Shown: piece by piece, positions 12,877 through 57,975 of the stretch
How the letters are laid out: the number at the start of each line of letters is the position of its first letter
Numbering within the stretch: the first letter of the stretch is position 1
Source: Gammaproteobacteria bacterium
GTDB lineage: Bacteria; Pseudomonadota; Gammaproteobacteria; Eutrophobiales; Eutrophobiaceae
Direction of reading: 5' to 3'
Assembly (NCBI GenBank): GCA_028279365.1
Contig: JANQNX010000014.1
Coordinates: 143,921 to 207,920 of the forward strand
Length of the DNA: 64,000 nucleotides
Program-made: the position numbers and the translations under genes
Notes under the pieces: generated by a model
What the model saw: only the letters and a program-made list of their open reading frames with translations
Databases searched by the model: none
Told to the model about the DNA's origin: nothing

Positions 12877-12998
12877 GACTCCGCTTTGGTTTTTTTATCG
12901 TATGGCGATGTATCGGCTAAAATATGGCAATCTTTACTCCCTCGCAGATTTTTTTTATTACTGGGAATAGTTTATTAGTTGTTGATTTTAATAAGATT

Positions 12999-13568
12999 AT
13001 GAAAAAGCGATGTAGCTGGTGCGGTGACGATCCGCTGTATGTGAAATATCACGATAAGGAGTGGGGCGTGCCGGTCCATTCTGACCGGAAACTCTTCGAG
13101 TTTTTGATATTGGAAGGTGCGCAGGCCGGTCTGAGCTGGATCACCGTATTGAGAAAGCGCCAGGCCTATCGGGATGCGTTTGATCGTTTCGACTTTAACA
13201 AGATTGCTCGTTATAACGAATCAAAAATCAGCCGTTTGCTGGAGAACGAGGGCATTATAAGAAATCGACTGAAGATTCGCTCTGCGGTGAGTAATGCGCA
13301 AGCGTTTATCAGGATTAGGGAAGAATACGGCAGCTTTAACAAATTCATCTGGCAATACACTGATGGTGGAACCTTACAAAACAAATGGAAGACCCTGGCT
13401 GACGTTCCGGCTAAAACTGAATTATCTGATCGAATCGCAAAAGACTTAAAAAAAGCTGGATTTAACTTTGTCGGTTCGACGATTTGTTATGCGTTTATGC
13501 AGGCAATTGGTATGGTTAACGATCATACTTTGGACTGCTTTCGTTACAATGAGATTAAAAAAAGGTAA
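12999..13568 (+). CDS. tag: DNA-3-methyladenine glycosylase I
   Basis: Collinear with E. coli Tag (CxWxxxDPLYxxYHDxEWGVP, FLxLEGxQAGLSWITVL, FVGxTICYxFMQAxGxVNDH). Start at MKKRCSWCG; the ORF track starts 25 codons earlier. Confidence 0.85.
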   Translation: MKKRCSWCGDDPLYVKYHDKEWGVPVHSDRKLFEFLILEGAQAGLSWITVLRKRQAYRDAFDRFDFNKIARYNESKISRLLENEGIIRNRLKIRSAVSNAQAFIRIREEYGSFNKFIWQYTDGGTLQNKWKTLADVPAKTELSDRIAKDLKKAGFNFVGSTICYAFMQAIGMVNDHTLDCFRYNEIKKR

Positions 13569-14298
13569 GCCCGTTTTGAATCAATCATTAAAAGTTTTGT
13601 TTCTGATTACTTTTTTCTTCATCAGTTTGTCAGTATCAGCAGAGGCTGAGTTTAAGTTCAAGCGGACGACACCGCTTGAATTGGATAATCAGTTTCTTGC
13701 TGCAATTGATGAGGAAGTCAAATTCATAATTCAGCGAATCAATCAGATCCTGCTTATCCCTGAAAATGTTGTTTTTCTATTTGGCGCAGAGGATGGGCCT
13801 TTATACGATCCTTTATTAAAACAGATTTGGATGCCTGATGACTTTACCTATGAAGTCATTGAACGATTTGAACAGGCGAATTATGTTGAGAATGAACAGG
13901 AATTGTTTGATGTCACAGTCGATGTGATAGAACACACGCTCTACCATGAACTGGGTCATGCATTAATAGACATTTTACAAATACCGATTACCGGCAGAGA
14001 GGAAGATGCCGTTGATAATCTGGCAACAATCCTGGTGATTATGACGAATGAGGAGGGTGGCGAGGTAGCATTAAGTGCTGCCGATTTATTTGATCTTGAG
14101 GGTGATGATAGACAGGAATTTACTGATGAAGACTATTGGGGCGAACATAGTCTGGATTATCAACGGTTTTATAATGCAATTTGTTACATCTACGGCAGTA
14201 AGCCAGACCAGTATCAGTATTTAATTGAGGAATTAGCTATTACCGAAGATCGAGCTGAGCTCTGTATTGAGGATTTTTTGCGAATAAGGACATCATGA
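13549..14298 (+). CDS. Secreted putative zinc metallopeptidase (HExxH; DUF4344-like)
   Basis: Signal peptide MRLKKGK...SLSVSAEA and HTLYHELGHAL zinc-binding motif. The acidic C-terminal half is also present. Start chosen at the Met that begins the signal peptide, overlapping the tag 3' end by 20 nt. Confidence 0.55.
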   Translation: MRLKKGKPVLNQSLKVLFLITFFFISLSVSAEAEFKFKRTTPLELDNQFLAAIDEEVKFIIQRINQILLIPENVVFLFGAEDGPLYDPLLKQIWMPDDFTYEVIERFEQANYVENEQELFDVTVDVIEHTLYHELGHALIDILQIPITGREEDAVDNLATILVIMTNEEGGEVALSAADLFDLEGDDRQEFTDEDYWGEHSLDYQRFYNAICYIYGSKPDQYQYLIEELAITEDRAELCIEDFLRIRTS

Positions 14299-45692: not shown

Positions 45693-47093
<1,401 letters not shown>

Positions 47094-47107
47094 CTAAATT
47101 ATACATG

Positions 47108-48151
47108 CTAAGGCCCGGGATTAGGATGCATCTCATGAATCGCCTCTATTTTCCTGATGAGGTCTTTACTCAAGTTGACATTGATACTGTCTATATCGGA
47201 TTTGAGTTGTGACATTGATGTCGCGCCAATAATGTTACTGGTCAGAAACGCACGTGAATTTACATAGGCTAATGCCATTTGTGCCGGGTCGAGTCCATTT
47301 TCTTTTGCCAGATTGACATAGGCGTCGGTTGCGGCAATCGCCTGCGTATTGGTGTAACGAGTAAAGCGATCAAATAGCACCAGCCGCGAACCTTCCGGCT
47401 TCGCGTTATTCAGGTATTTGCCACTGAGTACACCAAATGCGAGTGGCGAGTAGGCGAGCAGACCCACTTGCTCCCGATGTGCGAATTCAGCCAGTCCAAT
47501 TTCAAAGCTGCGATTGAGTAAGTTATAGGGATTCTGAATACTGACGATGCGCGGTGAATTATTCTCTCGAGAGACACGCAGATACTCGGCACAACCCCAG
47601 GCAGTTTCATTAGAAATACCAATCGTCCTGACCTTACCTGATTGCACAATTTCAGCGAGCACTGACAGGGTCTCTTCAATGGCAACGCCATCTTTTTCAG
47701 GGGCATGGTAGTAATTCAGTTTGCCAAAATAGTTGGTGTCGCGTTCCGGCCAATGCAGCTGATATAAGTCAAGATAGTCGGTTTGTAGCCGCTGCAACGA
47801 TGCATCAAGTGCTGCAGTAATATTCTTTTTATCCAGCTTCGCTTCGCCGTTGCGCAAGTAGGGTAACCATTCAGCTTGTGCACAGACTTTACTGGCGATA
47901 ATTAATTGATCGCGGTCGCTGCGTTTAGCTAACCAATTGCCGAGATAGGTCTCGGTCAGCCCCTGTGTTTCTGCCTTGGGTGCGACCGGATACATCTCTG
48001 CGGTATCAATGAAATTAATACCGGCGTCAATGGCATAATCCAACTGTTCATGTGCTTCCTGTTCAGTATTTTGCTCTCCCCAGGTCATGGTGCCGAGGCA
48101 CAATTGACTGACGCTGATATCCGTGTTTCCCAGTGTATTAAATTTCATCAT
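47108..48151 (-). CDS. tas: NADP(H)-dependent aldo-keto reductase Tas
   Basis: Collinear with E. coli Tas (LGLGTMTxGEQN...HxQLDYAxxxGINxIDxAEMYP ... IVxIQNPYxLLNRSFEVGLAE). Confidence 0.85.
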   Translation of the reverse strand: MMKFNTLGNTDISVSQLCLGTMTWGEQNTEQEAHEQLDYAIDAGINFIDTAEMYPVAPKAETQGLTETYLGNWLAKRSDRDQLIIASKVCAQAEWLPYLRNGEAKLDKKNITAALDASLQRLQTDYLDLYQLHWPERDTNYFGKLNYYHAPEKDGVAIEETLSVLAEIVQSGKVRTIGISNETAWGCAEYLRVSRENNSPRIVSIQNPYNLLNRSFEIGLAEFAHREQVGLLAYSPLAFGVLSGKYLNNAKPEGSRLVLFDRFTRYTNTQAIAATDAYVNLAKENGLDPAQMALAYVNSRAFLTSNIIGATSMSQLKSDIDSINVNLSKDLIRKIEAIHEMHPNPGP

Positions 48152-48237
48152 TACCTCGCGCGTTTCTCAATGACAGTTCAGACAATAGCACTGACTTATG
48201 ATACCTTTAAGTCATCGAATAAACTCAATTCTGTTGA

Positions 48238-49275
48238 TTGATGCAAACCCTGACAATTACGAAACCCGATGATTGGCACCTGCATGTGCGTGACGGTGAC
48301 ACATTGGCAAGCGTGGTGAATCATACTGCTGCCCAGTTTGCCCGCGCGATTATTATGCCTAACCTGCAACCACCTGTTGTCTCGACTGAAATGGCATTGG
48401 CTTACTATCAGCGGATTATGGCGGCCGTTGATAGTCGCTATCAATTTCAACCATTAATGACGCTTTATCTGACTGACAATACCTCGCCAGAAGAGATCAA
48501 GCTTGCGGCCAGCTGTGAACATGTCAAAGCGTTGAAATACTATCCTGCTGGTGCGACGACGAATTCTGATCAAGGGGTGACTGATTTTAAAAAGACTTAT
48601 CCTGCGCTTGAAGCAATGTCGGAGTTAGGCGTCTTGCTGCTATTGCATGGTGAGGTGACAGATAATCATATCGATGTGTTTGATCGAGAGGCAGTGTTCA
48701 TTGAAAAGATACTCTCCAGGCTGGTAGCTGATTTCCCGAATTTAAAAATTGTCTTTGAACATATCACCACCCGCGCAGCGGTCGAGTTTGTCATGCAAGC
48801 CGGTGACAACATTGCAGCAACCATCACACCGCAGCATATATTATTGAATCGAAATGATTTATTTCGGGGGGGATTACGCCCACATCATTACTGTTTACCT
48901 ATCCTGAAAGCGGAGGATGATCGGCAGGCAGTCATCGCTGCTGCAACCAGCGGTAACCCGAAATTCTTTCTCGGTACAGATAGCGCGCCGCATGCGCGTG
49001 GCAAAAAGGAAAGTGATTGCGGTTGTGCCGGTATTTATACCGCCCATATCGCATTGGAACTCTATGCTGAGGCCTTCGCCCGCGCTGATAAACTCGACAA
49101 ACTGGAGGCGTTTGCCAGTTTTTATGGCCCAGACTTTTATGGCCTGCCCAGAAATATCGATTCGGTCACGCTGATTAAACAGGAACAAACTGTGCCTGAT
49201 ACACTTCCGCTTGGTGACACTGTGCTGGTGCCGTTTCGTGCCGGCAGTAGCTGTAGCTGGCAACTACAACACTGA
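48238..49275 (+). CDS. pyrC: Dihydroorotase (class II)
   Basis: PDDWHLHx[14 protein letters not shown] and CGCAG motifs, collinear with E. coli PyrC. Confidence 0.9.
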
Positions 49276-49282
49276 TTACATT

Positions 49283-49897
49283 GTGGATACTGTTGCAACA
49301 CGTTTTCGTGGTTTTCTGCCGGTGATAGTGGATGTGGAAACCGCTGGCTTTAATGCTGCCACCGATGCCTTATTGGAAATCGCTGCGGTCACGATAACTA
49401 TTAATGATGAAGAACAATGGTGTATCGATGAAACGATTTCAAAACATGTGGAACCGTTTGAGGGTGCGAATCTTGATAAAGAATCGCTGGAGTTCACCGG
49501 CATTGATCCCGACCATCCTTTTCGCAAACAAATCGCTGTCAGCGAAGTCGAGGCGCTGCAGGCAATCTTTAAACCAATTCGAACTAAAATCAAACAGCAT
49601 CATTGCAAGCGTGCCGTGCTGGTCGGACACAATGCACATTTCGATTTAGGCTTTTTAAATGCCTGTGTTGAACGCAATGATATTAAACGTAACCCGTTTC
49701 ATCCTTTCAGCATATTTGATACAGCTACCTTGTGCGGTTTGGCTTATGGTCAGACGGTTTTGTCGCGCGCGGCGAAAGAGGCTGGTCTGGAATGGGATAC
49801 GAAAGAGGCACATTCTGCTCGTTATGATGCAGAGCAGACGGCATTACTGTTTTGTGACATTGTGAATAAGTGGAATACATACTCGGGCGTAATTTAA
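49283..49897 (+). CDS. rnt: Ribonuclease T
   Basis: DEDDh exonuclease collinear with E. coli RNase T ([18 protein letters not shown], HNAxFD, HSAxYD). A GTG start at 49283 best fits the homolog's N-terminus; the track ATG at 49211 would overlap pyrC by 65 nt. Confidence 0.75.
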
Positions 49898-49905
49898 GTT
49901 ATGAA

Positions 49906-50823
49906 TTAATAATACGCTTTCACCGGTGAAACAAAACCATTCGGTTTTAGAGCGAGCATGCCACAAGTTAATTGTTGCAAAATATTCTCAGCGGTGTTGC
50001 CAATAATAAAACCGGGAATGCCGTTTCTTGCTACTGTCCCCATCACCACCATATCAATCTTGTGTGTCTCGATATACTCGGGAATTTCTTCATTCGCTTT
50101 GCCTTTCTTCAGGATTAGACTGCCCGGCTTTTCTATTTTCGATTCTTCAAAAAGCGCGTCTATCGATTCTTTGTGGGCCAGTCGGGTGTCATCAAGCAGT
50201 TTGGTTAAGGTTTCAGCGTCGGTCTTTCCAAAGGCGGAATGTTTCAGAAAACTTTCATGTTCAAAATGCCAGCATGAAATAACATGGATAGTCCCATTCA
50301 GCATTGCATTCACTGCATAGCTCAGTTGCAGAAGTTTGATGCTCAGATCATGCCCTTCGGGCCTGTCGCTAAGCGGGTCGATGGCAACCAGGATCTGTGG
50401 GTTTTTATCAGTATGAAAATCTCTGTGAATCCAGACTGCACAAGGGCACTTTCGTAACAGATGCATGTCCAGCGATTTGAAACCAGAATGTTGTTGTGCA
50501 TCCAGCGGTTCTGATGACTTAATTACCAGGTCAATCTCGTTTTTCAGAACAAACTGGATAATCGCAACAAACTCAGGCGAGCTGGTTTGAAAAACAATCG
50601 GGCTGGCTTCGTTTATATTATGATGTTTGAGTTTTTCGCGAATTGAATCTTCGATAGTTTTTTGGAAGGCGGCCTGGGAATCAATCAACTCTTCCGGGAA
50701 CTTCGGATGCAATACCAGAAATGAGAGCTTACCATTGTTGGAAAAGCTCAGTGAGGCTGCGCGTTTTAGTACATCGTCTGATATCTGATTGGAGTAAACT
50801 ACAAAAAGGATATTCTTAAACAT
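49906..50823 (-). CDS. uspE: Tandem-domain universal stress protein UspE
   Basis: 305 aa with two Usp domains, collinear with E. coli UspE (HLLRKCPxPVW, GTVGRxGIxxxxxGNTAExV). Confidence 0.75.
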   Translation of the reverse strand: MFKNILFVVYSNQISDDVLKRAASLSFSNNGKLSFLVLHPKFPEELIDSQAAFQKTIEDSIREKLKHHNINEASPIVFQTSSPEFVAIIQFVLKNEIDLVIKSSEPLDAQQHSGFKSLDMHLLRKCPCAVWIHRDFHTDKNPQILVAIDPLSDRPEGHDLSIKLLQLSYAVNAMLNGTIHVISCWHFEHESFLKHSAFGKTDAETLTKLLDDTRLAHKESIDALFEESKIEKPGSLILKKGKANEEIPEYIETHKIDMVVMGTVARNGIPGFIIGNTAENILQQLTCGMLALKPNGFVSPVKAYY

Positions 50824-51155
50824 GGTGCGATACTATTACAGCTATAACTTAGGCAAAAATTAGATATTTTTATGTTACTAATTAGTCCGATGTATCAATA
50901 AAAATAGTTAGATTGTGATTATTTATCATCGTACGAAATAGAAAACAGAACATTATGTGTTGTGTTTTATCCAAAAGCATGGCTGATAGATAAATTCATT
51001 AAACTGTAATAATTTTGCAGTTACTGGATGATAGCATTTCATGTAGTTTGTTCAATGAGTGGTGCATGGACAGCATTTTGTAGTATGGAAAGTTTAAAAA
51101 AACAAAAAATTCATTTCCTTTTTTTCTGTTTATCCTCGGGTTAAGTCATAGTGCG

Positions 51156-52844
51156 GTGGCAGACATCACCGCATCGGGAAACTTGCCAATTAGCTATGAT
51201 GGCGTGTCCAATCCATGGATAGTTCGGCAGACAGAAATTTGTAATCCATTTATAGGTGGATGTTTTCTAATTCCTCTCAATGATGGCAATTTGGAACCGT
51301 TTGGCAATTTGGGTGTGTTTGGCTATGGTCCTGTAAGTGACTTAGCATTTAATTTACTGGAGATCGACAACGGCAGCGTCGTTATTAGTGAAGCGGGCTC
51401 TATAGGTTCTACCACCAGAATGTCTGGTTCTCATATTCTTACTGACGGGCATGGTGCCGTTGTTATCAAAGATCCCGGCAGTCAATGGATTAATCATGGC
51501 CGTTTGACGGTTGCGGCAGGTAGCGATGACGCATCCTTAGATGTGCTAAACGGGGCCTATGTAAACAGCGCCGAAGGCGCAATTAATCAAACCGGGATAG
51601 TGACCATATCTGGAGCTGGGTCCACTTGGTATAACGAAAACGGCCTGGAGGTAAATGGTGGTAGTATAAAAATTGAGAATGGTGCCCGACTAAGTAATTC
51701 AGTCGGTATCTTTAACTATCGTCCCTTTAATTCCTCATTTATTGACTATTCATCCTATCTTAGTTTATCAGGTTCCGTGACAATTTCCGGAGCGGGTTCT
51801 GTTTGGGAAAACAGACAGAGTAATAACCCAACACCGTATGATAGGTTATATATAGATGGTTCAGTGTTAATCGAAGACGGCGCCAGATTGGAAACCGTAA
51901 ATACATTTGTACGATTTGGTTTTGACACACAAAATATAACTGTAACGGGTACTGGGTCAACTTGGGAAAATCAGAACAATATTTTCGTCTCAAACCGATT
52001 AACTGTTTCAGACGGGGCCAAGGTAGTGACGAAAACGTCGACTTTTGACAACAGTGAAGTGTTGATCGATGGTTCAGGCTCCGAATTAACTATTCAGGAA
52101 AGTGCTCTTGTATTTGGCGGTCGTTTGAGTATTGTCAATCAGGCTTCTGTCAGCGGAAATGGCAGTTATAGTCAACGTGGTCGGCGTTCATTTAGCCTCG
52201 AAGAAGGCGTGCAATATTCTGGATTAACTACAGTTAACGGTATATTAGCATTTGATGGTGTGGAGATAATTGAGAGTAAAATTAATGGTAATGGAGATAT
52301 CAACGCTAACAACGTTTCAATAATCAATAGCTCGATAGAAGTGGGGGACAATCAGGAAACTGATATTTTTACCATTAACGGTGATCTATCGCTAATTAAT
52401 TCCATACTGGAAATTGATATTACGTCAACGGAAGAAATAAATAACATAGCAAGAATAAGAACTAACAGTTCTGATGTTTTACAGGTTTCAGGCACGACTA
52501 CAATTGAAAGAAGTTTTTTTTGGGGGGGCACTATTGAAGGTCCCGCGACCAACATCCTCTTCGATCTGACTGAATATGTCCCTATTTTGCAGACAGAAAC
52601 GTATACTTTTTTAACTGCTGATGAAATTTTATTTCAGGGTCTGGATATAGATGAGCTAATCGTAACTTTTTTGACTTCGTCCTCGTACAGTTTTGACTGG
52701 TTTATTGAACAGGTCCAGTTCAATGGCGGCCAGGCATTAAACTTAACGCTAGTTAACTCCGTACCGTTGCCAGCGGCTTTTTGGTTGATGAGCTTTGCCT
52801 TACTAGGTTTAATCCCTTTTAAAGCCTGTCGTTGTTCAAGCTAG
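51156..52844 (+). CDS. VPLPA-CTERM beta-helical repeat surface protein (N-terminus disrupted by T7 frameshift; intact form would start at ATG 51085)
   Basis: About 35 aa repeats (TISGAGSTW.N...G..L...) resembling autotransporter-associated beta-strand repeats. C-terminus ...NSVPLPAAFWLMSFALLGLIPFK. The in-frame upstream sequence encodes ...FPFFLFILGLSHSAVA (a signal peptide) but has no start codon. An ATG at 51085 in the +1 frame would join it if the T7 run at 51119-51125 were T8. Confidence 0.65.
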   Translation: MADITASGNLPISYDGVSNPWIVRQTEICNPFIGGCFLIPLNDGNLEPFGNLGVFGYGPVSDLAFNLLEIDNGSVVISEAGSIGSTTRMSGSHILTDGHGAVVIKDPGSQWINHGRLTVAAGSDDASLDVLNGAYVNSAEGAINQTGIVTISGAGSTWYNENGLEVNGGSIKIENGARLSNSVGIFNYRPFNSSFIDYSSYLSLSGSVTISGAGSVWENRQSNNPTPYDRLYIDGSVLIEDGARLETVNTFVRFGFDTQNITVTGTGSTWENQNNIFVSNRLTVSDGAKVVTKTSTFDNSEVLIDGSGSELTIQESALVFGGRLSIVNQASVSGNGSYSQRGRRSFSLEEGVQYSGLTTVNGILAFDGVEIIESKINGNGDINANNVSIINSSIEVGDNQETDIFTINGDLSLINSILEIDITSTEEINNIARIRTNSSDVLQVSGTTTIERSFFWGGTIEGPATNILFDLTEYVPILQTETYTFLTADEILFQGLDIDELIVTFLTSSSYSFDWFIEQVQFNGGQALNLTLVNSVPLPAAFWLMSFALLGLIPFKACRCSS

Positions 52845-52845
52845 A

Positions 52846-54156
52846 TTAAGCTCTTATTTTTGTTTCCCACTCGGTCGCTTTTTTCATCAAGCTACTGTAT
52901 TCGATGGTCGTCAATTCACGATTGGCTAAAACTTGTTTGCCCGCTATCCAAACATCCGTGACTTGCTGGCGGTTGCCGCTGTAGACCAGTTGTGAAATCG
53001 GTTCGAAATTTGGCAGTGTTTCTAACTGTTCAAGATTGATAGCGACGATATCGGCCTGTTTACCCTTTTTCAAAGAACCGATCTGTTCGCTTAAACCCAA
53101 TGCTTTGGCACCATTAATCGTTGCGGCCGCTAAAGCAGCAGGGGCAGCTAACGCAGTGCTATCTTGAGCGACGCCTTTTGCCAGTAAAGCGGCAGTGCGC
53201 ATTTCGCCAAACATATCCAGATCATTATTACTGGCGACACCGTCGGTACCAATGCAAACATTGACCTTGGCATCCATCAATTGTTTAACTGGACAAAAGC
53301 CGCTGGCAAGTTTGAGGTTGGACTCGGGACAGTGAGCGATACTTACACCTAGCTTGGCTAGATTCTGTATTTCAGCTGGTTCTAACTGCGTCATGTGGAC
53401 AGCTAATAGGCGCGGACTCAACAAGCCCAGTTCTTCCAGGCGTTGTAAGGGTCGCTTGCCGGTGTTTTCAACGGCCTGTGCCACCTCGTCAGCCGTTTCA
53501 TGGATATGCATATGAATCGGAATATCGAGTTCTTCTGCCAGCACACTGATACGCTTTAGTGGTTCATCAGAGACGGTATACGGGGCATGCGGTGCAAAGG
53601 CCGTATTAACCAGCGGTGCATGTCGATAATTATCATGGACTTGCTCGCCTTTTAAAATGTACTCATCGGCGTCTTTAGCCCAGGCGGTCGGGAAATCAAT
53701 CAAGATTAGGCCGACGACAACGCGCATACCCACGTTTGCACAGACCTCTGCAGTTTTATCGGGGAAAAAATACATATCGTTAAAACAGGTGGTGCCGCCA
53801 CGTATCATTTCGGCTATCGCGAGTTGTGAGCCTTCATTAACGAATTCAGGATCGACCCATTTCTGCTCGGCTGGCCAAATATGGTTATTCAACCATTCCA
53901 TTAATGGTAAATCGTCCGCCAGTCCGCGAAATAGATTCATCGATGCATGCGTATGGGCGTTGATCAATCCCGGGATCAATACATGACTATTAAGCACAAA
54001 CTCATTGTTAGCAGAATATTTTTGTTTTGCTGTTTCGGTTGGCAGGATCGCGTCAATCTTGCCAGCGTGAATTGCCAGAGAATGGTCCTTCAATACCTGG
54101 CCATGAGGTTCTACCGGGATAATCCATTTTGCGTTTAACAACGTATCAATATTCAC
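52846..54156 (-). CDS. mtaD: TRZ/ATZ-family amidohydrolase, probable 5'-methylthioadenosine/S-adenosylhomocysteine deaminase
   Basis: Metal-binding HxH (INAHTHASM), HxHETADE and a conserved D near the C-terminus. It is divergent from mtnA, a methionine-salvage context. Confidence 0.7.
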   Translation of the reverse strand: MNIDTLLNAKWIIPVEPHGQVLKDHSLAIHAGKIDAILPTETAKQKYSANNEFVLNSHVLIPGLINAHTHASMNLFRGLADDLPLMEWLNNHIWPAEQKWVDPEFVNEGSQLAIAEMIRGGTTCFNDMYFFPDKTAEVCANVGMRVVVGLILIDFPTAWAKDADEYILKGEQVHDNYRHAPLVNTAFAPHAPYTVSDEPLKRISVLAEELDIPIHMHIHETADEVAQAVENTGKRPLQRLEELGLLSPRLLAVHMTQLEPAEIQNLAKLGVSIAHCPESNLKLASGFCPVKQLMDAKVNVCIGTDGVASNNDLDMFGEMRTAALLAKGVAQDSTALAAPAALAAATINGAKALGLSEQIGSLKKGKQADIVAINLEQLETLPNFEPISQLVYSGNRQQVTDVWIAGKQVLANRELTTIEYSSLMKKATEWETKIRA

Positions 54157-54254
54157 GATGATTTAATGTCCTGTTAAAGTTCTAAACAACTGATTATGCT
54201 GCACACTATATTCATCTTTTTATCAGATTGCATTAGAGGAGATAGGTAACGCCA

Positions 54255-55286
54255 ATGGCAGAATCATTTGCCGCTGTCCAATGGAATAAAGGCATGTTGA
54301 CCTTGTTGGATCAGCGCAAGCTTCCGCAGGAGCTGATCTATCTCGATTACGATAGCTGCCATGAGGTGGCTGATGCGATTACTAATATGGTAGTGCGAGG
54401 CGCGCCTGCAATCGGGATTGCTGCTGCCTACGCGGTCGTGTTTGCTGCCCGCCATGCCTATCAGGAAGATATAGAAAATTGGCGAAAGCTAATTGAACCT
54501 GCATTACAATATCTCGCGGATGCCAGACCCACAGCGGTCAATTTGTCCTGGGCGATAGCAGAAATGCGACAGGCATTTGATGAAATCACCGGCGATCCTG
54601 AACACTATTTATTAGAACAGGCAAAGCGTATTCATCAAGACGACATTGCTGCAAATCAGCAGATGGGGCGACTGGGTGCTGAATTGATTCAGCCAAACAG
54701 TCATGTGTTGACGCATTGTAATGCCGGAGCATTGGCCACCGGTGGCTATGGAACGGCCCTGGGTGTGATCCGTAGCGCTTACCAAAAAGGGTTGATTGAT
54801 CATGTTTATGCGTCTGAGACGCGTCCATGGATGCAGGGCGCAAGGCTAACCAGTTGGGAGTTACAACAGGATGCCATTCCGGTTAGTCTGGTGATTGATT
54901 CGGCAGCGGCTACGTTGATGCATTCAGGTACAGTGCAATGGCTGATCGTTGGCTCAGATCGCATTGCTGCTAATGGTGATGCGGCAAATAAAATTGGTAC
55001 CTACTCTCATGCCGTTAATGCCAAACATCATGGCATAAAAGTGATGGTGGTAGCGCCATCGTCGACTGTCGATATGAGTCTGGAATCGGGTAGCCAAATT
55101 CCGATTGAGCACCGAACCGCTAGCGAGATTACTGCCATTCAGCAGATGCCTGTAGCGCCAAAAAATATGGACGCAATCAATCCTGCATTCGATGTGACAC
55201 CAGCAGAATTAATTGATGCGATCGTCACTGAAAAAGGTGTCGTGAACAAACCCGATACTGAAAAAATGCGATCTGTATTTCATTGA
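54255..55286 (+). CDS. mtnA: S-methyl-5-thioribose-1-phosphate isomerase
   Basis: eIF-2B alpha/beta/delta-like MtnA family (GAPAIG, CNAGALAT, the GSDRIAANGD motif). Confidence 0.85.
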   Translation: MAESFAAVQWNKGMLTLLDQRKLPQELIYLDYDSCHEVADAITNMVVRGAPAIGIAAAYAVVFAARHAYQEDIENWRKLIEPALQYLADARPTAVNLSWAIAEMRQAFDEITGDPEHYLLEQAKRIHQDDIAANQQMGRLGAELIQPNSHVLTHCNAGALATGGYGTALGVIRSAYQKGLIDHVYASETRPWMQGARLTSWELQQDAIPVSLVIDSAAATLMHSGTVQWLIVGSDRIAANGDAANKIGTYSHAVNAKHHGIKVMVVAPSSTVDMSLESGSQIPIEHRTASEITAIQQMPVAPKNMDAINPAFDVTPAELIDAIVTEKGVVNKPDTEKMRSVFH

Positions 55287-55348
55287 TTTTAAAAGGGTTA
55301 TTGAAGTAAAAAAAATGAAATAAAAGTAGGGTAAATCGCTTCGATATG

Positions 55349-55376
55349 TTAGAATTTGCAGCTTCAAAATTATAAT
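55349..55376 (+). promoter_or_regulatory. Putative sigma70 promoter of gyrA
   Basis: TTAGAA-16 nt-TATAAT, about 40 nt upstream of the gyrA ATG. Confidence 0.3.
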
Positions 55377-55416
55377 AATTTAAGGCTTTTTTACTTCCTT
55401 TTTTCATCAATGGTTT

Positions 55417-57975
55417 ATGTCTGAATCTGATTTCGCGCGGGCGCTTTCCCAGGTAAATATCGAAGACGAAATGCGGCAATCCTATATGGATTACGCAATG
55501 AGCGTCATTGTCGGTCGAGCATTGCCCGATGTTCGTGACGGTCTTAAACCGGTGCATCGTCGTGTGCTCTATGCGATGAAAGAAATGGGCATTGAATATA
55601 ATAAGGCCTATAAGAAGTCGGCGAGAGTCGTCGGTGATGTGATTGGTAAATATCATCCGCATGGCGATACTGCAGTTTACGATACCATTGTGCGCATGGC
55701 GCAGCCGTTCTCGTTACGCTACGTATTGATAGACGGTCAGGGTAATTTCGGGTCGGTCGATGGTGATGCGCCGGCGGCGATGCGTTATACCGAAGTGCGC
55801 ATGTCACGTATTGCGCATGAGATCCTGGAAGACATTGATAAAGACACGGTCGATTTTGCGCCTAACTATGACGGTTCCGAGCAGGAGCCAGTGGTACTGC
55901 CGACCCGCATTCCGAATTTACTGGTTAATGGTTCCAGCGGCATTGCCGTGGGCATGGCGACTAATATTCCGCCACATAATTTAAGCGAGGTGATTTCGGC
56001 TTGTCTTGCCCTAATCGATAATCCGGATTGTTCTATTGCTGAACTCATGCAGCATATCCCCGGACCGGATTTTCCAACTGCAGCCATCATTAATGGTTCA
56101 TCAGGTATCCGTGAGGCTTATGAAACCGGGCGTGGTCGCATTTACATTCGCGCTAGAACCGAGATCGAAGAACTGGAATCAGGTAATCGGATCATCATTC
56201 ACGAATTACCTTATCAGGTAAATAAGGCGCGTTTACTGGAAAAAATTGCCGAGTTAGTGAAAGACAAAAAAGTGACCGGCATACGCGAGCTTCGCGACGA
56301 ATCAGATAAAGATGGCATGCGTGTTGTGATTGAACTGAAGCGTGGCGAAGTCGGTGAAGTGATTCTGAATAATTTGTATAAGTTTACCCAAATGCAGTCA
56401 GTGTTCGGCATTAACATCGTGGCATTGGCAGACAATCAACCACGCTTGATGAATCTGAAAGATTTGCTGGAAGCGTTTGTCAGTCATCGACGTGAAGTTG
56501 TGACGCGAAGAACCTTATTTGAACTCAGAAAAGCCCGAAATCGCGCACATATTTTAGAAGGTCTCGCCGTTGCACTCGCTAATATCGATCCGGTTATTGC
56601 GCTGATTAAACAATCAGCCAGTCCTGCCGAGGCGAAACAAGGGCTGCTTGATGAACTTTGGGAGTCAGGTACCGTTGTAGAGATGCTACAACGTGCCGGT
56701 GCTGAGGCCTCGCGTCCGGAAGAACTTGCAGCAGAGTTTGGACTACAGGAAGGGGGTTATCGTTTGTCGCCGGAACAGGCGCAGGCCATTCTTGAATTAC
56801 GTTTACAAAAATTAACTGGCCTCGAAAAAGAAAAAATACTCAAGGAATATGCTGATTTACTAGATGTCATTGCTGACTTGCTGGACATCCTCTCCAGACC
56901 TGAACGTTTGATGGAAGTCATACGTGACGAACTGGATGACGTTAAGGAGCGTTACGGTGATGAACGTAAGACTGAAATTGTTCAGACCCAGCAAGACCTG
57001 AGTATGGAAGATTTGATCACTGAAGAGGATGTAGTCGTGACCTTGTCTCATGCCGGCTATGCCAAATCGCAACCGATCGATACCTATCGTTCACAACGTC
57101 GTGGTGGACGTGGAAAATCGGCAACATCAGTCAAAGATGAAGACTTTATCGATAAGCTATTTATTGCCAGTACGCACGATACGATTTTATGTTTTTCCAG
57201 TCGCGGTAAATTGTATTGGTTGAAGGTTTACGAGTTACCGCAGGCAAGTCGAACCGCGCGTGGAAAACCGATCGTTAATTTACTGCCATTAGAAGACGGT
57301 GAGCAGATAAATGCTATCTTGCCGATCAGGGAGTTTAGTGAAGATAAGTTTTTATTCATGGCAACCGCGGATGGTACGGTCAAGAAAACCTCGCTGGCCG
57401 AATTTTCCCGGCCCAGACCCAGCGGTATCCGTGCAATTGAACTGGTTGCAGGTAACAAGCTGATTGGTGTCGAGCTGACTGATGGAGCACATGACATCAT
57501 GCTTTTCAGTAATGCTGGTAAGGTAGTGCGTTTCCCGGAATCACACGTGCGGGCAATGGGACGAACCGCCAAAGGTGTCAGGGGAATACGCCTTCAGGAG
57601 GGCCAAAAAGTTATTTCTCTTATTATCGTTAACGGTAAAGATGAAACGATATTGACAGCAACAGAAAATGGTTATGGCAAACGCACGGCCACTGAAGATT
57701 ATCCGCAAAAGTCTAGAGGTGGATCTGGTGTGATCTCGATTCAGGTATCGGAACGTAACGGCTCGGTGGTGGGTGCGGTCGCGGTTGCCAATGATGACGA
57801 GATCATGTTGATCAGCGATCAAGGTACCTTAATCAGAACGCCGGTCAGTGATATTTCCGTGTTTGGCAGAAACACGCAAGGTGTGAGGCTGGTTAATCTG
57901 GATGAGTCAGAACATCTGGCCGGACTGGAGCGTATTGTCGAATATAACGACGACGAGTCGTCTTCTGATTCCTGA
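55417..57975 (+). CDS. gyrA: DNA gyrase subunit A
   Basis: Near-identical N-terminal region to E. coli GyrA including [15 protein letters not shown] and the active-site Tyr region. Acidic C-terminal tail. Confidence 0.95.

What the first reader, a model, noticed from the sequence alone, without database searches (positions are those of the whole stretch)
51085..51160. Homopolymeric T7 tract interrupts the signal peptide of a VPLPA-CTERM surface protein (phase-variation candidate or sequencing error)
The reading frame of the 562 aa repeat protein extends upstream as ...KTKNSFPFFLFILGLSHSAVA|DITASG. That is a textbook signal peptide with an AVA cleavage site, but it has no in-frame start codon. 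An ATG at 51085 (MESLKKQKIHFLFF...) is in the +1 frame and terminates after 19 codons. One extra T (T8), or two fewer (T5), in the T7 run at 51119-51125 fuses them into MESLKKQKIHFLFFLFILGLSHSAVA-DITASG.... Homopolymer slippage in the 5' end of a surface-protein gene is the classic contingency-locus mechanism. It is equally the classic homopolymer sequencing artefact.
Basis: seen in the sequence. Interest (0 to 1): 0.6.

Follow-up and report, generated by a model that had tools for sequence, protein, structure and literature searches.

The report
Frameshifted signal peptide of surface protein
A gene for a beta-helix surface protein of an uncultured gammaproteobacterium has lost contact with its start codon through a one-base change in a short A/T-rich stretch; this is most likely an ordinary recent inactivating mutation, and nothing here shows a dedicated on/off switch.

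Summary
ATG 51085 opens a 19-codon frame (MESLKKQKIHFLFFCLSSG*). The 562-codon ORF is open upstream to 51084 and encodes ...FPFFLFILGLSHSAVA|DITASG with no usable start. T7 lies at 51119-51125, and T8 or T5 fuses the frames. Ten distant homologues carry a signal peptide ending directly before the same I-T-x-x-G...P-x-Y motif, so the split signal peptide is real.

- **Site not unique.** A7 (51096-51102) and A6 (51104-51109) restore an equally good signal peptide with +1. A substitution in TAG 51081, downstream of the frame-0 ATG 51066, would also do so.
- **Sequencing error unlikely.** An independent Logan assembly of run SRR20820731 is identical over 9.5 kb, T7 included. None of the other 26 runs of at least 7 nt breaks a gene.
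- **Phase variation untested.** No second strain or close homologue exists in any collection searched. Seven-base A/T runs are ordinary in this window. The runs in the signal-peptide codons are what Lys/Phe codons give (P=0.47).
- **No frameshift stimulator.** No stimulatory RNA structure follows the slippery sites.

Best reading: a genuine, young frameshift or OFF allele in a lineage-specific accessory gene. Interest is low.

The parts
50824..51084 (.). AT-rich (about 35% GC) divergent intergenic region between the usp gene (minus strand) and the repeat-protein gene. The presumed promoter and leader lie here.
   Evidence: ORF map and composition. The simple sigma-70 scan found no plus-strand consensus promoter here. 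No Rfam family reached its threshold. No flanking inverted repeats suggest an invertible promoter.
51066..51083 (+). Frame-0 ATG (51066) followed by MDSIL and the stop TAG 51081-51083. This is the alternative ancestral start if the lesion is a nonsense substitution rather than a frameshift.
   Evidence: Translation MDSIL*YGKFKKTKNSFPFF. The Shine-Dalgarno pairing energy is -3.6 kcal/mol, against -3.0 for ATG 51085 and a median of -3.15 for 28 reference starts.
51085..51144 (+). 19-codon frame from ATG 51085 to TAA 51142-44, MESLKKQKIHFLFFCLSSG*. It holds the start codon, the n-region and the beginning of the h-region of the signal peptide, one base out of frame with the rest of the gene.
51096..51102 (+). 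A7 run. One extra A gives MESLKKTKNSFPFFLFILGLSHSAVA. A_AAA_AAA is in phase as a -1 slippery heptamer.
   Evidence: searches (run list; reading frames), and direct reading of the sequence.
51104..51109 (+). A6 run. One extra A gives MESLKKQKNSFPFFLFILGLSHSAVA.
   Evidence: and direct reading of the sequence.
51119..51125 (+). T8 or T5 fuses the frames. T_TTT_TTC (51120-51126) is in phase as a -1 slippery heptamer.
51126..51161 (+). The remainder of the signal peptide in the main frame (LFILGLSHSAVA). The predicted signal-peptidase site lies after A-V-A, between 51161 and 51162.
   Evidence: Translation and alignment with the signal peptides of homologues.
51156..52844 (+). The ORF as called in public annotation (GTG start, 562 aa, P0001). 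The mature protein starts at D (51162).
   Evidence: Four TIGR04393 T5SS/PEP-CTERM-associated repeat stretches score 79 bits against a cut-off of 23.
51333..52175 (+). Confidently modelled all-beta repeat core (residues about 60-340 of the 562-aa ORF), a beta-helix like the passenger domains of self-associating autotransporters.
   Evidence: AlphaFold2 with a 25-sequence alignment gives pLDDT mostly 90-98 over residues 100-330. The best PDB matches are TibA 4q1q (E 6e-4) and Ag43 7kob/7koh. These matches are weak (TM 0.27-0.47).
52514..52528 (+). T8 followed directly by G7, in frame (FFWGG). A +/-1 change would remove the last ~100 residues, including the C-terminal anchor.
52761..52844 (+). 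C-terminal sorting-signal-like tail VPLPAAFWLMSFALLGLIPFKACRCSS plus the stop codon.
   Evidence: Translation. There are weak sub-threshold matches to PepA PEP-CTERM (21 bits), VPLPA-CTERM (14.9 bits against 25.35), EppA and XDP1.

Best explanation
**What the gene is.** The DNA really carries a one-base frame disruption in the first 14 codons of a lineage-specific accessory gene. The gene encodes a Sec-exported, beta-helical repeat protein with a PEP-CTERM-like (VPLPA + transmembrane) tail.

**How the lesion arose.** The most likely event is loss of one base by replication slippage in one of three short A/T runs: A8 to A7 at 51096, A7 to A6 at 51104, or T8 to T7 at 51119.

**Consequence.** The start codon and Lys-rich n-region (ATG 51085) are now out of frame with the h-region, the AVA cleavage site and the 560-residue mature protein.
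- Translation from ATG 51085 stops after 19 codons.
- The annotated GTG 51156 start would give a protein without a signal peptide. That protein could not reach the envelope, where this family works.
- As sequenced, the gene is therefore OFF.

**Age and reversibility.**
- The lesion is young, because the other 586 codons are still open.
- It is reversible in principle by a +1 slip. The expected rate is the ordinary mutation rate of a 7-nt A/T run, not that of a dedicated hypermutable switch.
- A trace of full-length protein could arise from +1 transcriptional slippage or -1 ribosomal slippage on the same runs.

**Shown and inferred.**
- Shown: the frame anatomy, the homology of the split signal peptide, agreement of two assemblies, and absence of other homopolymer frame breaks.
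- Inferred: that the event was a slippage deletion, which run it hit, that the gene is non-functional, and that no selected switching is involved.
For: - **Anatomy and repair by +1 or -2:**
- **Signal peptide required and homologous.** 10 of 10 relatives with the I-T-x-x-G..P-x-Y N-terminus have a signal peptide ending just before it. About 97% of PEP-CTERM proteins have a signal peptide (Haft 2006, PMC1569441).
- **Real in the reads.** Logan contig SRR20820731_51602 equals window 46163-55662 with 0 differences, T7 included. The 15-billion-protein collection holds only the 562-aa form, in a cluster of one, with no 586-aa variant.
- **Not a general homopolymer artefact.** The other 26 runs of at least 7 nt lie in intact ORFs or between genes, and the suspicious overlapping ORF pairs are separate full-length genes.
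- **Ordinary tract.**
  - T8 and A8 runs occur inside intact genes of this window.
  - The signal-peptide codons carry no more runs than synonymous shuffles give (P=0.47).
  - Selection against slippage-prone A/T runs typically appears at about 9 nt (PMC1088944).
  - The PhasomeIt poly-A/T cut-off is at least 10 (PMC6321876).
- **Accessory gene.** The synteny gyrA-mtnA-mtaD-[variable]-rnt-pyrC is conserved. The nearest relatives lack both usp and this gene (L005 has mtaD and rnt 50 bp apart), and the gene's GC is lower than that of its flanks.
- **Singleton frameshifts.** Singleton frameshifted genes are generally indel mutations or sequencing errors (Antonov 2013, PMC3711429).
Against: - **Nothing decides between a one-off mutation and an OFF phase.** Only one sample of this organism exists in the collections.
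- **Contingency-like features.**
  - The gene as a whole carries more runs of at least 7 nt than synonymous shuffles give (4 against a mean of 1.8, P=0.017).
  - It has 2.3 such runs per kb against 0.44 for the window.
  - They include a G7 that meets the usual poly-G cut-off.
  - Three slippage-prone runs sit inside the 58-nt frame overlap.
  - The product is a surface protein.
- **Intact remainder.** The fully intact remainder of the ORF also fits a gene that is still in use.
- **Assemblies not independent in sequencing.** Both assemblies may come from the same reads, so a systematic read error is not formally excluded.
- **A different lesion.** The lesion could instead be the TAG at 51081.
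Confidence: 0.5

Rival explanations
1. This is a true contingency locus. Slipped-strand mispairing in the A7/A6/T7 cluster switches the surface protein ON and OFF at a selected, elevated rate. The sequenced population is in the OFF phase. The T8G7 tract near the 3' end is a possible second switch that removes the anchor.
For: - The gene encodes a surface beta-helix protein that resembles the self-associating autotransporters TibA and Ag43.
- Three runs lie within the 58-nt frame overlap, and any of them repairs the frame with +1.
- The gene is enriched in runs of at least 7 nt (P=0.017).
- The internal G7 meets the poly-G/C cut-off of at least 7, and a +/-1 change deletes the anchor.
- The ORF is otherwise intact.
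- Poly-A tracts in the N-terminal coding region of a surface lipoprotein are a known switch (M. fermentans p78, cited in PMC3711429).
Against: - No tract-length variation could be observed, because there is one sample and no relatives.
- The Logan contig runs through the tract without a break.
- 7-nt A/T runs are common in intact housekeeping genes here.
- The 5' runs are explained by Lys/Phe codons (P=0.47).
- The tracts are shorter than the poly-A/T cut-off of at least 10.
- None of the family members with the motif shows a similar N-terminal break.
Confidence: 0.18
2. This is a sequencing or consensus error. The organism has T8 (or A8/A7) and an intact 586-aa gene.
For: Homopolymers are the classic site of indel errors. 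The repair needs only one base, and the rest of the gene is intact. Singleton frameshifts confirmed by homology are often errors (PMC3711429).
Against: - Two different assemblies agree base for base over 9.5 kb.
- None of the other 26 runs of at least 7 nt, including eight 8-mers, breaks a gene in the 64 kb.
- No 586-aa variant is present in the protein collection.
Confidence: 0.1
3. The lesion is a nonsense mutation, not a frameshift. The ancestral start was the frame-0 ATG 51066, and a sense codon at 51081-83 mutated to TAG. The ancestral signal peptide was MDSILxYGKFKKTKNSFPFFLFILGLSHSAVA. The frame-1 ATG 51085 is then coincidental.
For: - The frame-0 ATG lies 15 nt upstream of the TAG.
- The resulting 32-residue signal peptide is within the 22-34 residue range of the homologues.
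- Its Shine-Dalgarno energy is no worse than that of ATG 51085 (-3.6 against -3.0).
Against: - It needs a specific substitution, which is far rarer than an indel in a 7-nt run (established mutation biases; inference).
- It leaves the ATG 51085 frame, which stays open exactly up to the runs, as a coincidence.
- The 16-residue n-region is longer than usual.
Confidence: 0.08
4. This is programmed recoding. The full-length protein is made from the T7/A7 template by -1 ribosomal frameshifting (T_TTT_TTC or A_AAA_AAA) or by +1 transcriptional slippage, as a built-in way to set a low expression level.
For: - Both heptamers are in the right phase, and a -1 shift is the direction needed.
- The product would be identical to the T8 or A8 protein.
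- Transcription insertions occur in A/T runs and rise exponentially with run length (PMC5574713).
- Some disrupted ORFs are rescued this way (PMC1088944).
Against: - There is no stimulatory structure. The fold of 51127-51210 has z = -0.70, and the only stable hairpin starts 24 nt after the T site.
- There is no Shine-Dalgarno-like stimulator upstream.
- 7-nt runs are below the roughly 9 nt at which slippage matters.
- No homologue shows a conserved frame break.
- About two of three phases of a T7 give a valid heptamer, so the phase match is weak evidence.
Confidence: 0.05

Closest known systems
Homopolymer-associated frameshifted pseudogenes ('authentic frameshift' singletons; Antonov et al. 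2013, PMC3711429)
   Same: A single frame break next to a poly-A/T run of at least 7 nt, confirmed by homology on both sides of the break. It occurs in one genome only, and the rest of the ORF is intact.
   Different: Here the break lies within the signal peptide of a surface protein, and three alternative runs lie within 30 nt. The case therefore overlaps in form with phase-variable genes.
SSR-mediated translational phase variation of surface proteins (for example the poly-A tract in the N-terminal coding region of Mycoplasma fermentans p78, or poly-G tracts of Campylobacter and Neisseria surface genes)
   Same: A homopolymer in the 5' coding region of a surface-protein gene. A +/-1 change toggles between a full-length exported protein and a short peptide.
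   Different: No length variation has been observed. The tracts are short (6-7 nt A/T) and explained by codon usage. The organism is an uncultured environmental gammaproteobacterium with no sign of other contingency loci in this 64-kb window.
T5SS/PEP-CTERM-associated repeat proteins (NCBIfam TIGR04393) and the PEP-CTERM/exosortase sorting system (Haft 2006)
   Same: Four repeat stretches score above the curated cut-off. The architecture is N-terminal signal peptide + conserved I-T-x-x-G..P-x-Y start + beta-helix repeats + C-terminal motif/TM tail. 91 of 153 relatives have PEP-CTERM-like tails.
   Different: The tail (VPLPAAFWLMSFALLGLIPFKACRCSS) is below the cut-off of every CTERM model and lacks the Arg-rich cluster. 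No exosortase gene was seen in the window. Sequence identity to any relative is at most 39% and is confined to the repeats.
Self-associating autotransporter passengers (TibA, Ag43)
   Same: The best structural matches of the confident beta-helix core. These are surface aggregation and adhesion factors, and Ag43 is itself phase-variable.
   Different: The matches are weak (E 6e-4 to 3e-3, TM 0.27-0.47, 12% identity). There is no autotransporter beta-barrel. Ag43 switches epigenetically (Dam/OxyR; from established knowledge), not through a repeat tract.
Transcriptional slippage or -1 PRF rescue of disrupted ORFs (IS elements, dnaX, endosymbiont poly-A genes; Baranov 2005, PMC1088944)
   Same: An A/T run at the break. 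A +1 nucleotide in the mRNA or a -1 ribosome slip would restore the ORF. The heptamers are in phase.
   Different: The runs are 7 nt rather than 9 or more. There is no stimulator and no conservation of the break in relatives.

Membership tests
T5SS/PEP-CTERM-associated repeat protein (TIGR04393) | Repeat model scores above the curated cut-off | tested here: met
   79 bits against a cut-off of 23, in 4 stretches. 241 repeat-level relatives have E<=1e-3.
T5SS/PEP-CTERM-associated repeat protein (TIGR04393) | N-terminal Sec signal peptide followed by the conserved mature N-terminus | tested here: inconclusive
   The signal peptide is present but split over two frames. It is contiguous only after a +1 (or -2) change.
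VPLPA-CTERM sorting domain (TIGR03370) | Domain model scores above the curated cut-off (25.35 bits) | tested here: not met
   10.2 bits in the whole protein and 14.9 bits for the tail alone. The VPLPA motif and a hydrophobic helix are present by eye, but the basic cluster is reduced to K..R.
PEP-CTERM/exosortase system | A cognate exosortase (EpsH/Xrt) and several PEP-CTERM proteins in the same genome | not testable with these tools
   Only 64 kb of the genome is available. No other ORF in the window has a PEP-CTERM-like tail. No exosortase was looked for beyond the ORFs scanned.
SSR contingency locus (phase variation by slipped-strand mispairing) | Repeat tract in the coding region or promoter whose +/-1 unit change toggles expression | tested here: met
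   A +1 in T7, A7 or A6 restores the full ORF.
SSR contingency locus (phase variation by slipped-strand mispairing) | Observed tract-length polymorphism within a population or between strains | not testable with these tools
   Only one sample carries the locus. There are no relatives in genome or metagenome collections.
SSR contingency locus (phase variation by slipped-strand mispairing) | Tract longer than expected from composition and at lengths shown to be hypermutable | tested here: not met
   The signal-peptide runs are not enriched against synonymous shuffles (P=0.47). 7-8 nt A/T runs occur in many intact genes. The tracts are below the poly-A/T cut-off of at least 10 in PMC6321876. The whole gene is mildly enriched (P=0.017), and its internal G7 does meet the poly-G cut-off.
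Programmed -1 ribosomal frameshift | X_XXY_YYZ slippery heptamer in the zero frame | tested here: met
   T_TTT_TTC at 51120-26 and A_AAA_AAA at 51096-102 in the ATG 51085 frame.
Programmed -1 ribosomal frameshift | Stimulatory element (a structure 5-9 nt downstream, or an upstream SD) and conservation of the break among homologues | tested here: not met
   The fold z-score is -0.70 and the hairpin is 24 nt away. Homologues have contiguous signal peptides.
Transcriptional-slippage recoding | A/T run long enough for appreciable slippage (typically 9 nt or more) | tested here: not met
   The runs are 6-7 nt. The threshold is taken from PMC1088944.

The most novel reading that the evidence does not exclude
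An exosortase-type (PEP-CTERM-like) beta-helix aggregation protein of an uncultured sediment or host-associated gammaproteobacterium is under true repeat-mediated phase variation. A cluster of three short A/T runs in the signal peptide would act as the ON/OFF switch. A T8G7 tract would act as a second switch that converts the anchored form into a truncated, unanchored one. This would extend contingency-locus biology to the PEP-CTERM protein class and to a non-pathogen.
Probability: 0.12. Interest if true: 0.5.

Novelty: new member of a known kind. Interest (0 to 1): 0.22.

Why it matters
**Annotation.** The public 562-aa protein with a GTG start (P0001) is almost certainly mis-modelled. The gene should be treated as a frameshifted gene whose intact form is 586 aa with a cleavable signal peptide.

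**Biology.** The stake is small unless tract-length variation is shown. In that case it would be a first hint that PEP-CTERM-type surface proteins of environmental bacteria are switched by simple repeats. I found no paper that links the two.

**Method.** The case shows that a 'homopolymer in a signal peptide' is largely a by-product of Lys (AAA) and Phe (TTT) codons. Several repairs can look equally convincing.

Tried and rejected
**Searches that found nothing comparable**
- **Exact 34-mer upstream of the tract in genome contigs:** 0 matches.
- **MtaD-anchored fetch of 80 syntenic loci from species representatives:** the closest are only 75-78% identical. None carries the gene or the usp neighbour.
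- **Protein-pattern scan of metagenome contigs:** nothing.
- **Exact-protein look-ups of four neighbouring genes:** all return the same single Logan contig. The look-up of P0001 itself found no record.
- **Word-index search:** found only the ORF itself plus five distant repeat proteins.
- **Full HMMER search:** gave only repeat-level relatives.
- **Literature:** 'SRR20820731' gives 0 papers. 'PEP-CTERM' with 'phase variation' gives no relevant paper. The M. fermentans p78 paper is not held.

**Hypotheses tested and rejected**
- **A general homopolymer error problem.** The overlapping pairs 12924/13468, 939/1180, 6010/6581 and 31595/32284 are separate complete genes.
- **An RNA structure as frameshift stimulator**.
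- **An Rfam element in the leader.** Only a 21.9-bit RsaF match turned up, far below the 60-bit gathering score.
- **An invertible promoter**.
- **GTG 51156 as the true start.** It would remove the signal peptide that all comparable relatives have.
- **CTG 51126 or ATC 51132 as starts.** The remaining stub is too short to act as a signal peptide.

**Analyses that did not help**
- **Shine-Dalgarno energies** could not discriminate among ATG 51066, ATG 51085 and GTG 51156.
- **Single-sequence structure prediction** was too poor to use (pLDDT 47.8).
Full report
**1. The observation**

- ATG 51085 opens MESLKKQKIHFLFFCLSSG and stops at TAA 51142-44.
- The frame of the long ORF is open from 51084, right after TAG 51081-83. 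It reads YGKFKKTKNSFPFFLFILGLSHSAVA|DITASG....
- Its first ATG, GTG or TTG is GTG 51156. That codon lies inside the A-V-A cleavage motif.
- T7 occupies 51119-51125.
- One extra T gives a 586-aa protein that begins MESLKKQKIHFLFFLFILGLSHSAVADITASG. Two fewer T also fuse the frames.

**2. The split signal peptide is real**

The word-index search found only the ORF itself (P0001, 562 aa, NCBI and Logan, a cluster of one) and five distant repeat proteins. A full HMMER search found 241 relatives, all at repeat level with 30-39% identity.

Ten of the proteins fetched in these two searches start their mature part with the same motif as this protein (I-T-x-x-G-D/N-x-x-P-x-Y...P-W). All ten have a signal peptide that ends directly before it. 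Examples:
- P0004: ...CASQA|AITPTGDVTPTYNGADDPW
- P0010: ...VIKA|DITPVGDIDPVY
- P0129: ...TTLA|AITATGDITPAY

Only this ORF has the motif at residue 3. [quoted passage not shown] GTG 51156 is therefore an artefact of ORF calling. The ancestral gene encoded a cleavable signal peptide, and that peptide is now split between two frames.

**3. What the protein is**

- NCBIfam finds four T5SS/PEP-CTERM-associated repeats (TIGR04393), 79 bits against a cut-off of 23.
- AlphaFold2 with a 25-sequence alignment gives a confident all-beta core, with pLDDT 90-98 over residues about 100-330.
- The best solved matches are the beta-helix passengers of the self-associating autotransporters TibA and Ag43. These matches are weak: E 6e-4 to 3e-3, TM 0.27-0.47.
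- The C-terminus is VPLPAAFWLMSFALLGLIPFKACRCSS. It looks like an exosortase-type sorting tail but is below the cut-off of every model: VPLPA-CTERM 10.2-14.9 bits against 25.35, PepA 21 bits. 'VPLPA-CTERM protein' is a reasonable description but not a demonstrated membership.

**4. Genomic setting**

- The neighbours are housekeeping genes in conserved order: gyrA-mtnA-mtaD-[gap]-rnt-pyrC-aldo/keto reductase.
- In 80 species representatives the closest MtaD is only 75-78% identical. All of the closest are uncultured Gammaproteobacteria MAGs. None has this gene or the adjacent usp gene.
- L005 has mtaD and rnt 50 bp apart. L003, L008 and L010 carry unrelated cargo in the gap.
- The gene is therefore a lineage-specific accessory gene in a variable spot. 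Its GC is slightly lower than that of its flanks.

**5. Sequencing error**

- Look-ups of four neighbouring proteins all led to one Logan contig, SRR20820731_51602 (9,500 bp). It equals window 46163-55662 without a single difference, T7 included.
- Logan is a separate assembly of the raw reads, so the T7 is not a product of one assembler or polisher. It may rest on the same reads, however.
- The window holds 28 runs of at least 7 nt. Apart from the A7 and T7 in the 5' overlap, every one of the other 26 lies in an intact ORF or between genes. Each suspicious overlapping ORF pair turned out to be two complete genes with full-length Pfam coverage.
- A platform with homopolymer trouble would have broken more genes. 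I put sequencing error at about 0.1.

**6. Whether the T7 is the site**

It need not be.
- The 58-nt overlap of the two frames also holds A7 (51096-102) and A6 (51104-109).
- One extra A in either gives MESLKKTKNSFPFF... or MESLKKQKNSFPFF.... Both are valid signal peptides, because A-runs read as Lys and T-runs as Phe in any frame.
- Frame 0 also has its own ATG at 51066 (MDSIL), followed by TAG 51081. One substitution there would give a 32-residue signal peptide, MDSILxYGKFKKTKNSFPFFLFILGLSHSAVA.
- Shine-Dalgarno energies do not separate the candidate starts: -3.6, -3.0 and -3.2 kcal/mol, against a median of -3.15 for 28 reference starts.
- An indel in a run is mutationally much more likely than one specific substitution. 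The ATG 51085 frame also stays open exactly up to the runs. I therefore favour a frameshift and give the nonsense route about 0.08.

**7. Phase variation**

The defining evidence is tract-length polymorphism. It cannot be obtained here, because one sample carries the locus and no relatives exist.

Indirect tests lean against a dedicated switch:
- 7-8 nt A/T runs are common in intact genes of this window.
- Synonymous-codon shuffles of the 26 signal-peptide codons give as many runs of at least 6 nt as observed (P=0.47).
- Cut-offs in use for poly-A/T contingency tracts are higher, at least 10 in PhasomeIt (PMC6321876).
- No inverted repeats or other switch elements are present.

Some features lean towards a switch:
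- The whole gene has more runs of at least 7 nt than shuffles give (4 against 1.8, P=0.017).
- These include an in-frame T8G7 at 52514-28. A +/-1 change there would delete the C-terminal anchor.
- The product is a surface protein.
- The ORF is otherwise intact.

I give true phase variation about 0.18.

**8. Recoding**

- T_TTT_TTC (51120-26) and A_AAA_AAA (51096-102) are in phase as -1 slippery heptamers, and -1 is the shift needed.
- One extra U or A added by RNA polymerase would do the same. Transcription insertions are known to concentrate in A/T runs and to rise exponentially with run length (PMC5574713).
- There is no stimulatory structure: z = -0.70, and the only stable hairpin starts 24 nt downstream.
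- There is no upstream SD-like element, and no homologue has a conserved frame break.
- Selection against slippage-prone runs typically starts near 9 nt (PMC1088944).
- Leaky expression at a low level is plausible. A programmed mechanism is not (about 0.05).

**9. Verdict**

The finding is real in the sequence, and it corrects a public gene model. The most likely explanation is ordinary. A recent one-base slippage deletion in a short A/T run has switched off a lineage-specific, exported beta-helix surface protein. The change is reversible in principle at ordinary mutation rates. Nothing found here marks it as a new kind of system. Reading the tract lengths in the raw reads of SRR20820731 would settle the open question.

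Noticed in passing
window 52514-52528: T8 is followed directly by G7 inside the same ORF, in frame (ERSFFWGG). G8 would stop the protein after 460 aa and G6 after 470 aa. Both remove the last ~100 residues, including the VPLPA tail. G7 is one of only two G7 runs in the 64 kb and meets the usual poly-G contingency cut-off.
   Followed up: partly
window 49906-52844; loci L003, L005, L008, L010: The mtaD-rnt interval is a variable insertion spot in an otherwise conserved gene order (gyrA-mtnA-mtaD-...-rnt-pyrC-aldo/keto reductase). L005 has the two genes 50 bp apart, and other relatives carry unrelated cargo. Here the interval holds a tandem-USP gene plus the repeat protein.
   Followed up: yes
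window 52842-52848: The stop codons of the repeat-protein gene (plus strand) and of mtaD (minus strand) are one base apart, which leaves no room for an intergenic terminator. The only terminator-like hairpin (52764-52776) lies inside the tail-coding region.
   Followed up: no
window 51151-51174: A 7-8 bp GC-rich hairpin (GCGGUG...CACCGC) spans GTG 51156 and the signal-peptidase site codons. The fold of the region as a whole is not better than shuffles (z -0.70).
   Followed up: partly
window 51284-51319: An 18-nt tandem direct repeat (TGGCAATTTGGAACCGTT / TGGCAATTTGGGTGTGTT, 78% identical) encodes GNLEPFGNLGVF near the N-terminus of the mature protein.
   Followed up: no
window 46163-55662 = Logan contig SRR20820731_51602: The organism appears in only one public run. 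That run's Logan assembly has more than 51,000 contigs, which suggests a metagenome or a host-associated sample. No species-level representative is present in the GTDB-based genome collection, and the closest MtaD is 78% identical.
   Followed up: partly
window 13448-13568: Two A7 runs sit where the ORFs 12924-13568 (3-methyladenine glycosylase) and 13468-14298 (DUF4344 metallopeptidase) overlap. This looked like a second homopolymer frameshift. Both proteins cover their Pfam models essentially end to end, so they are separate genes.
   Followed up: yes
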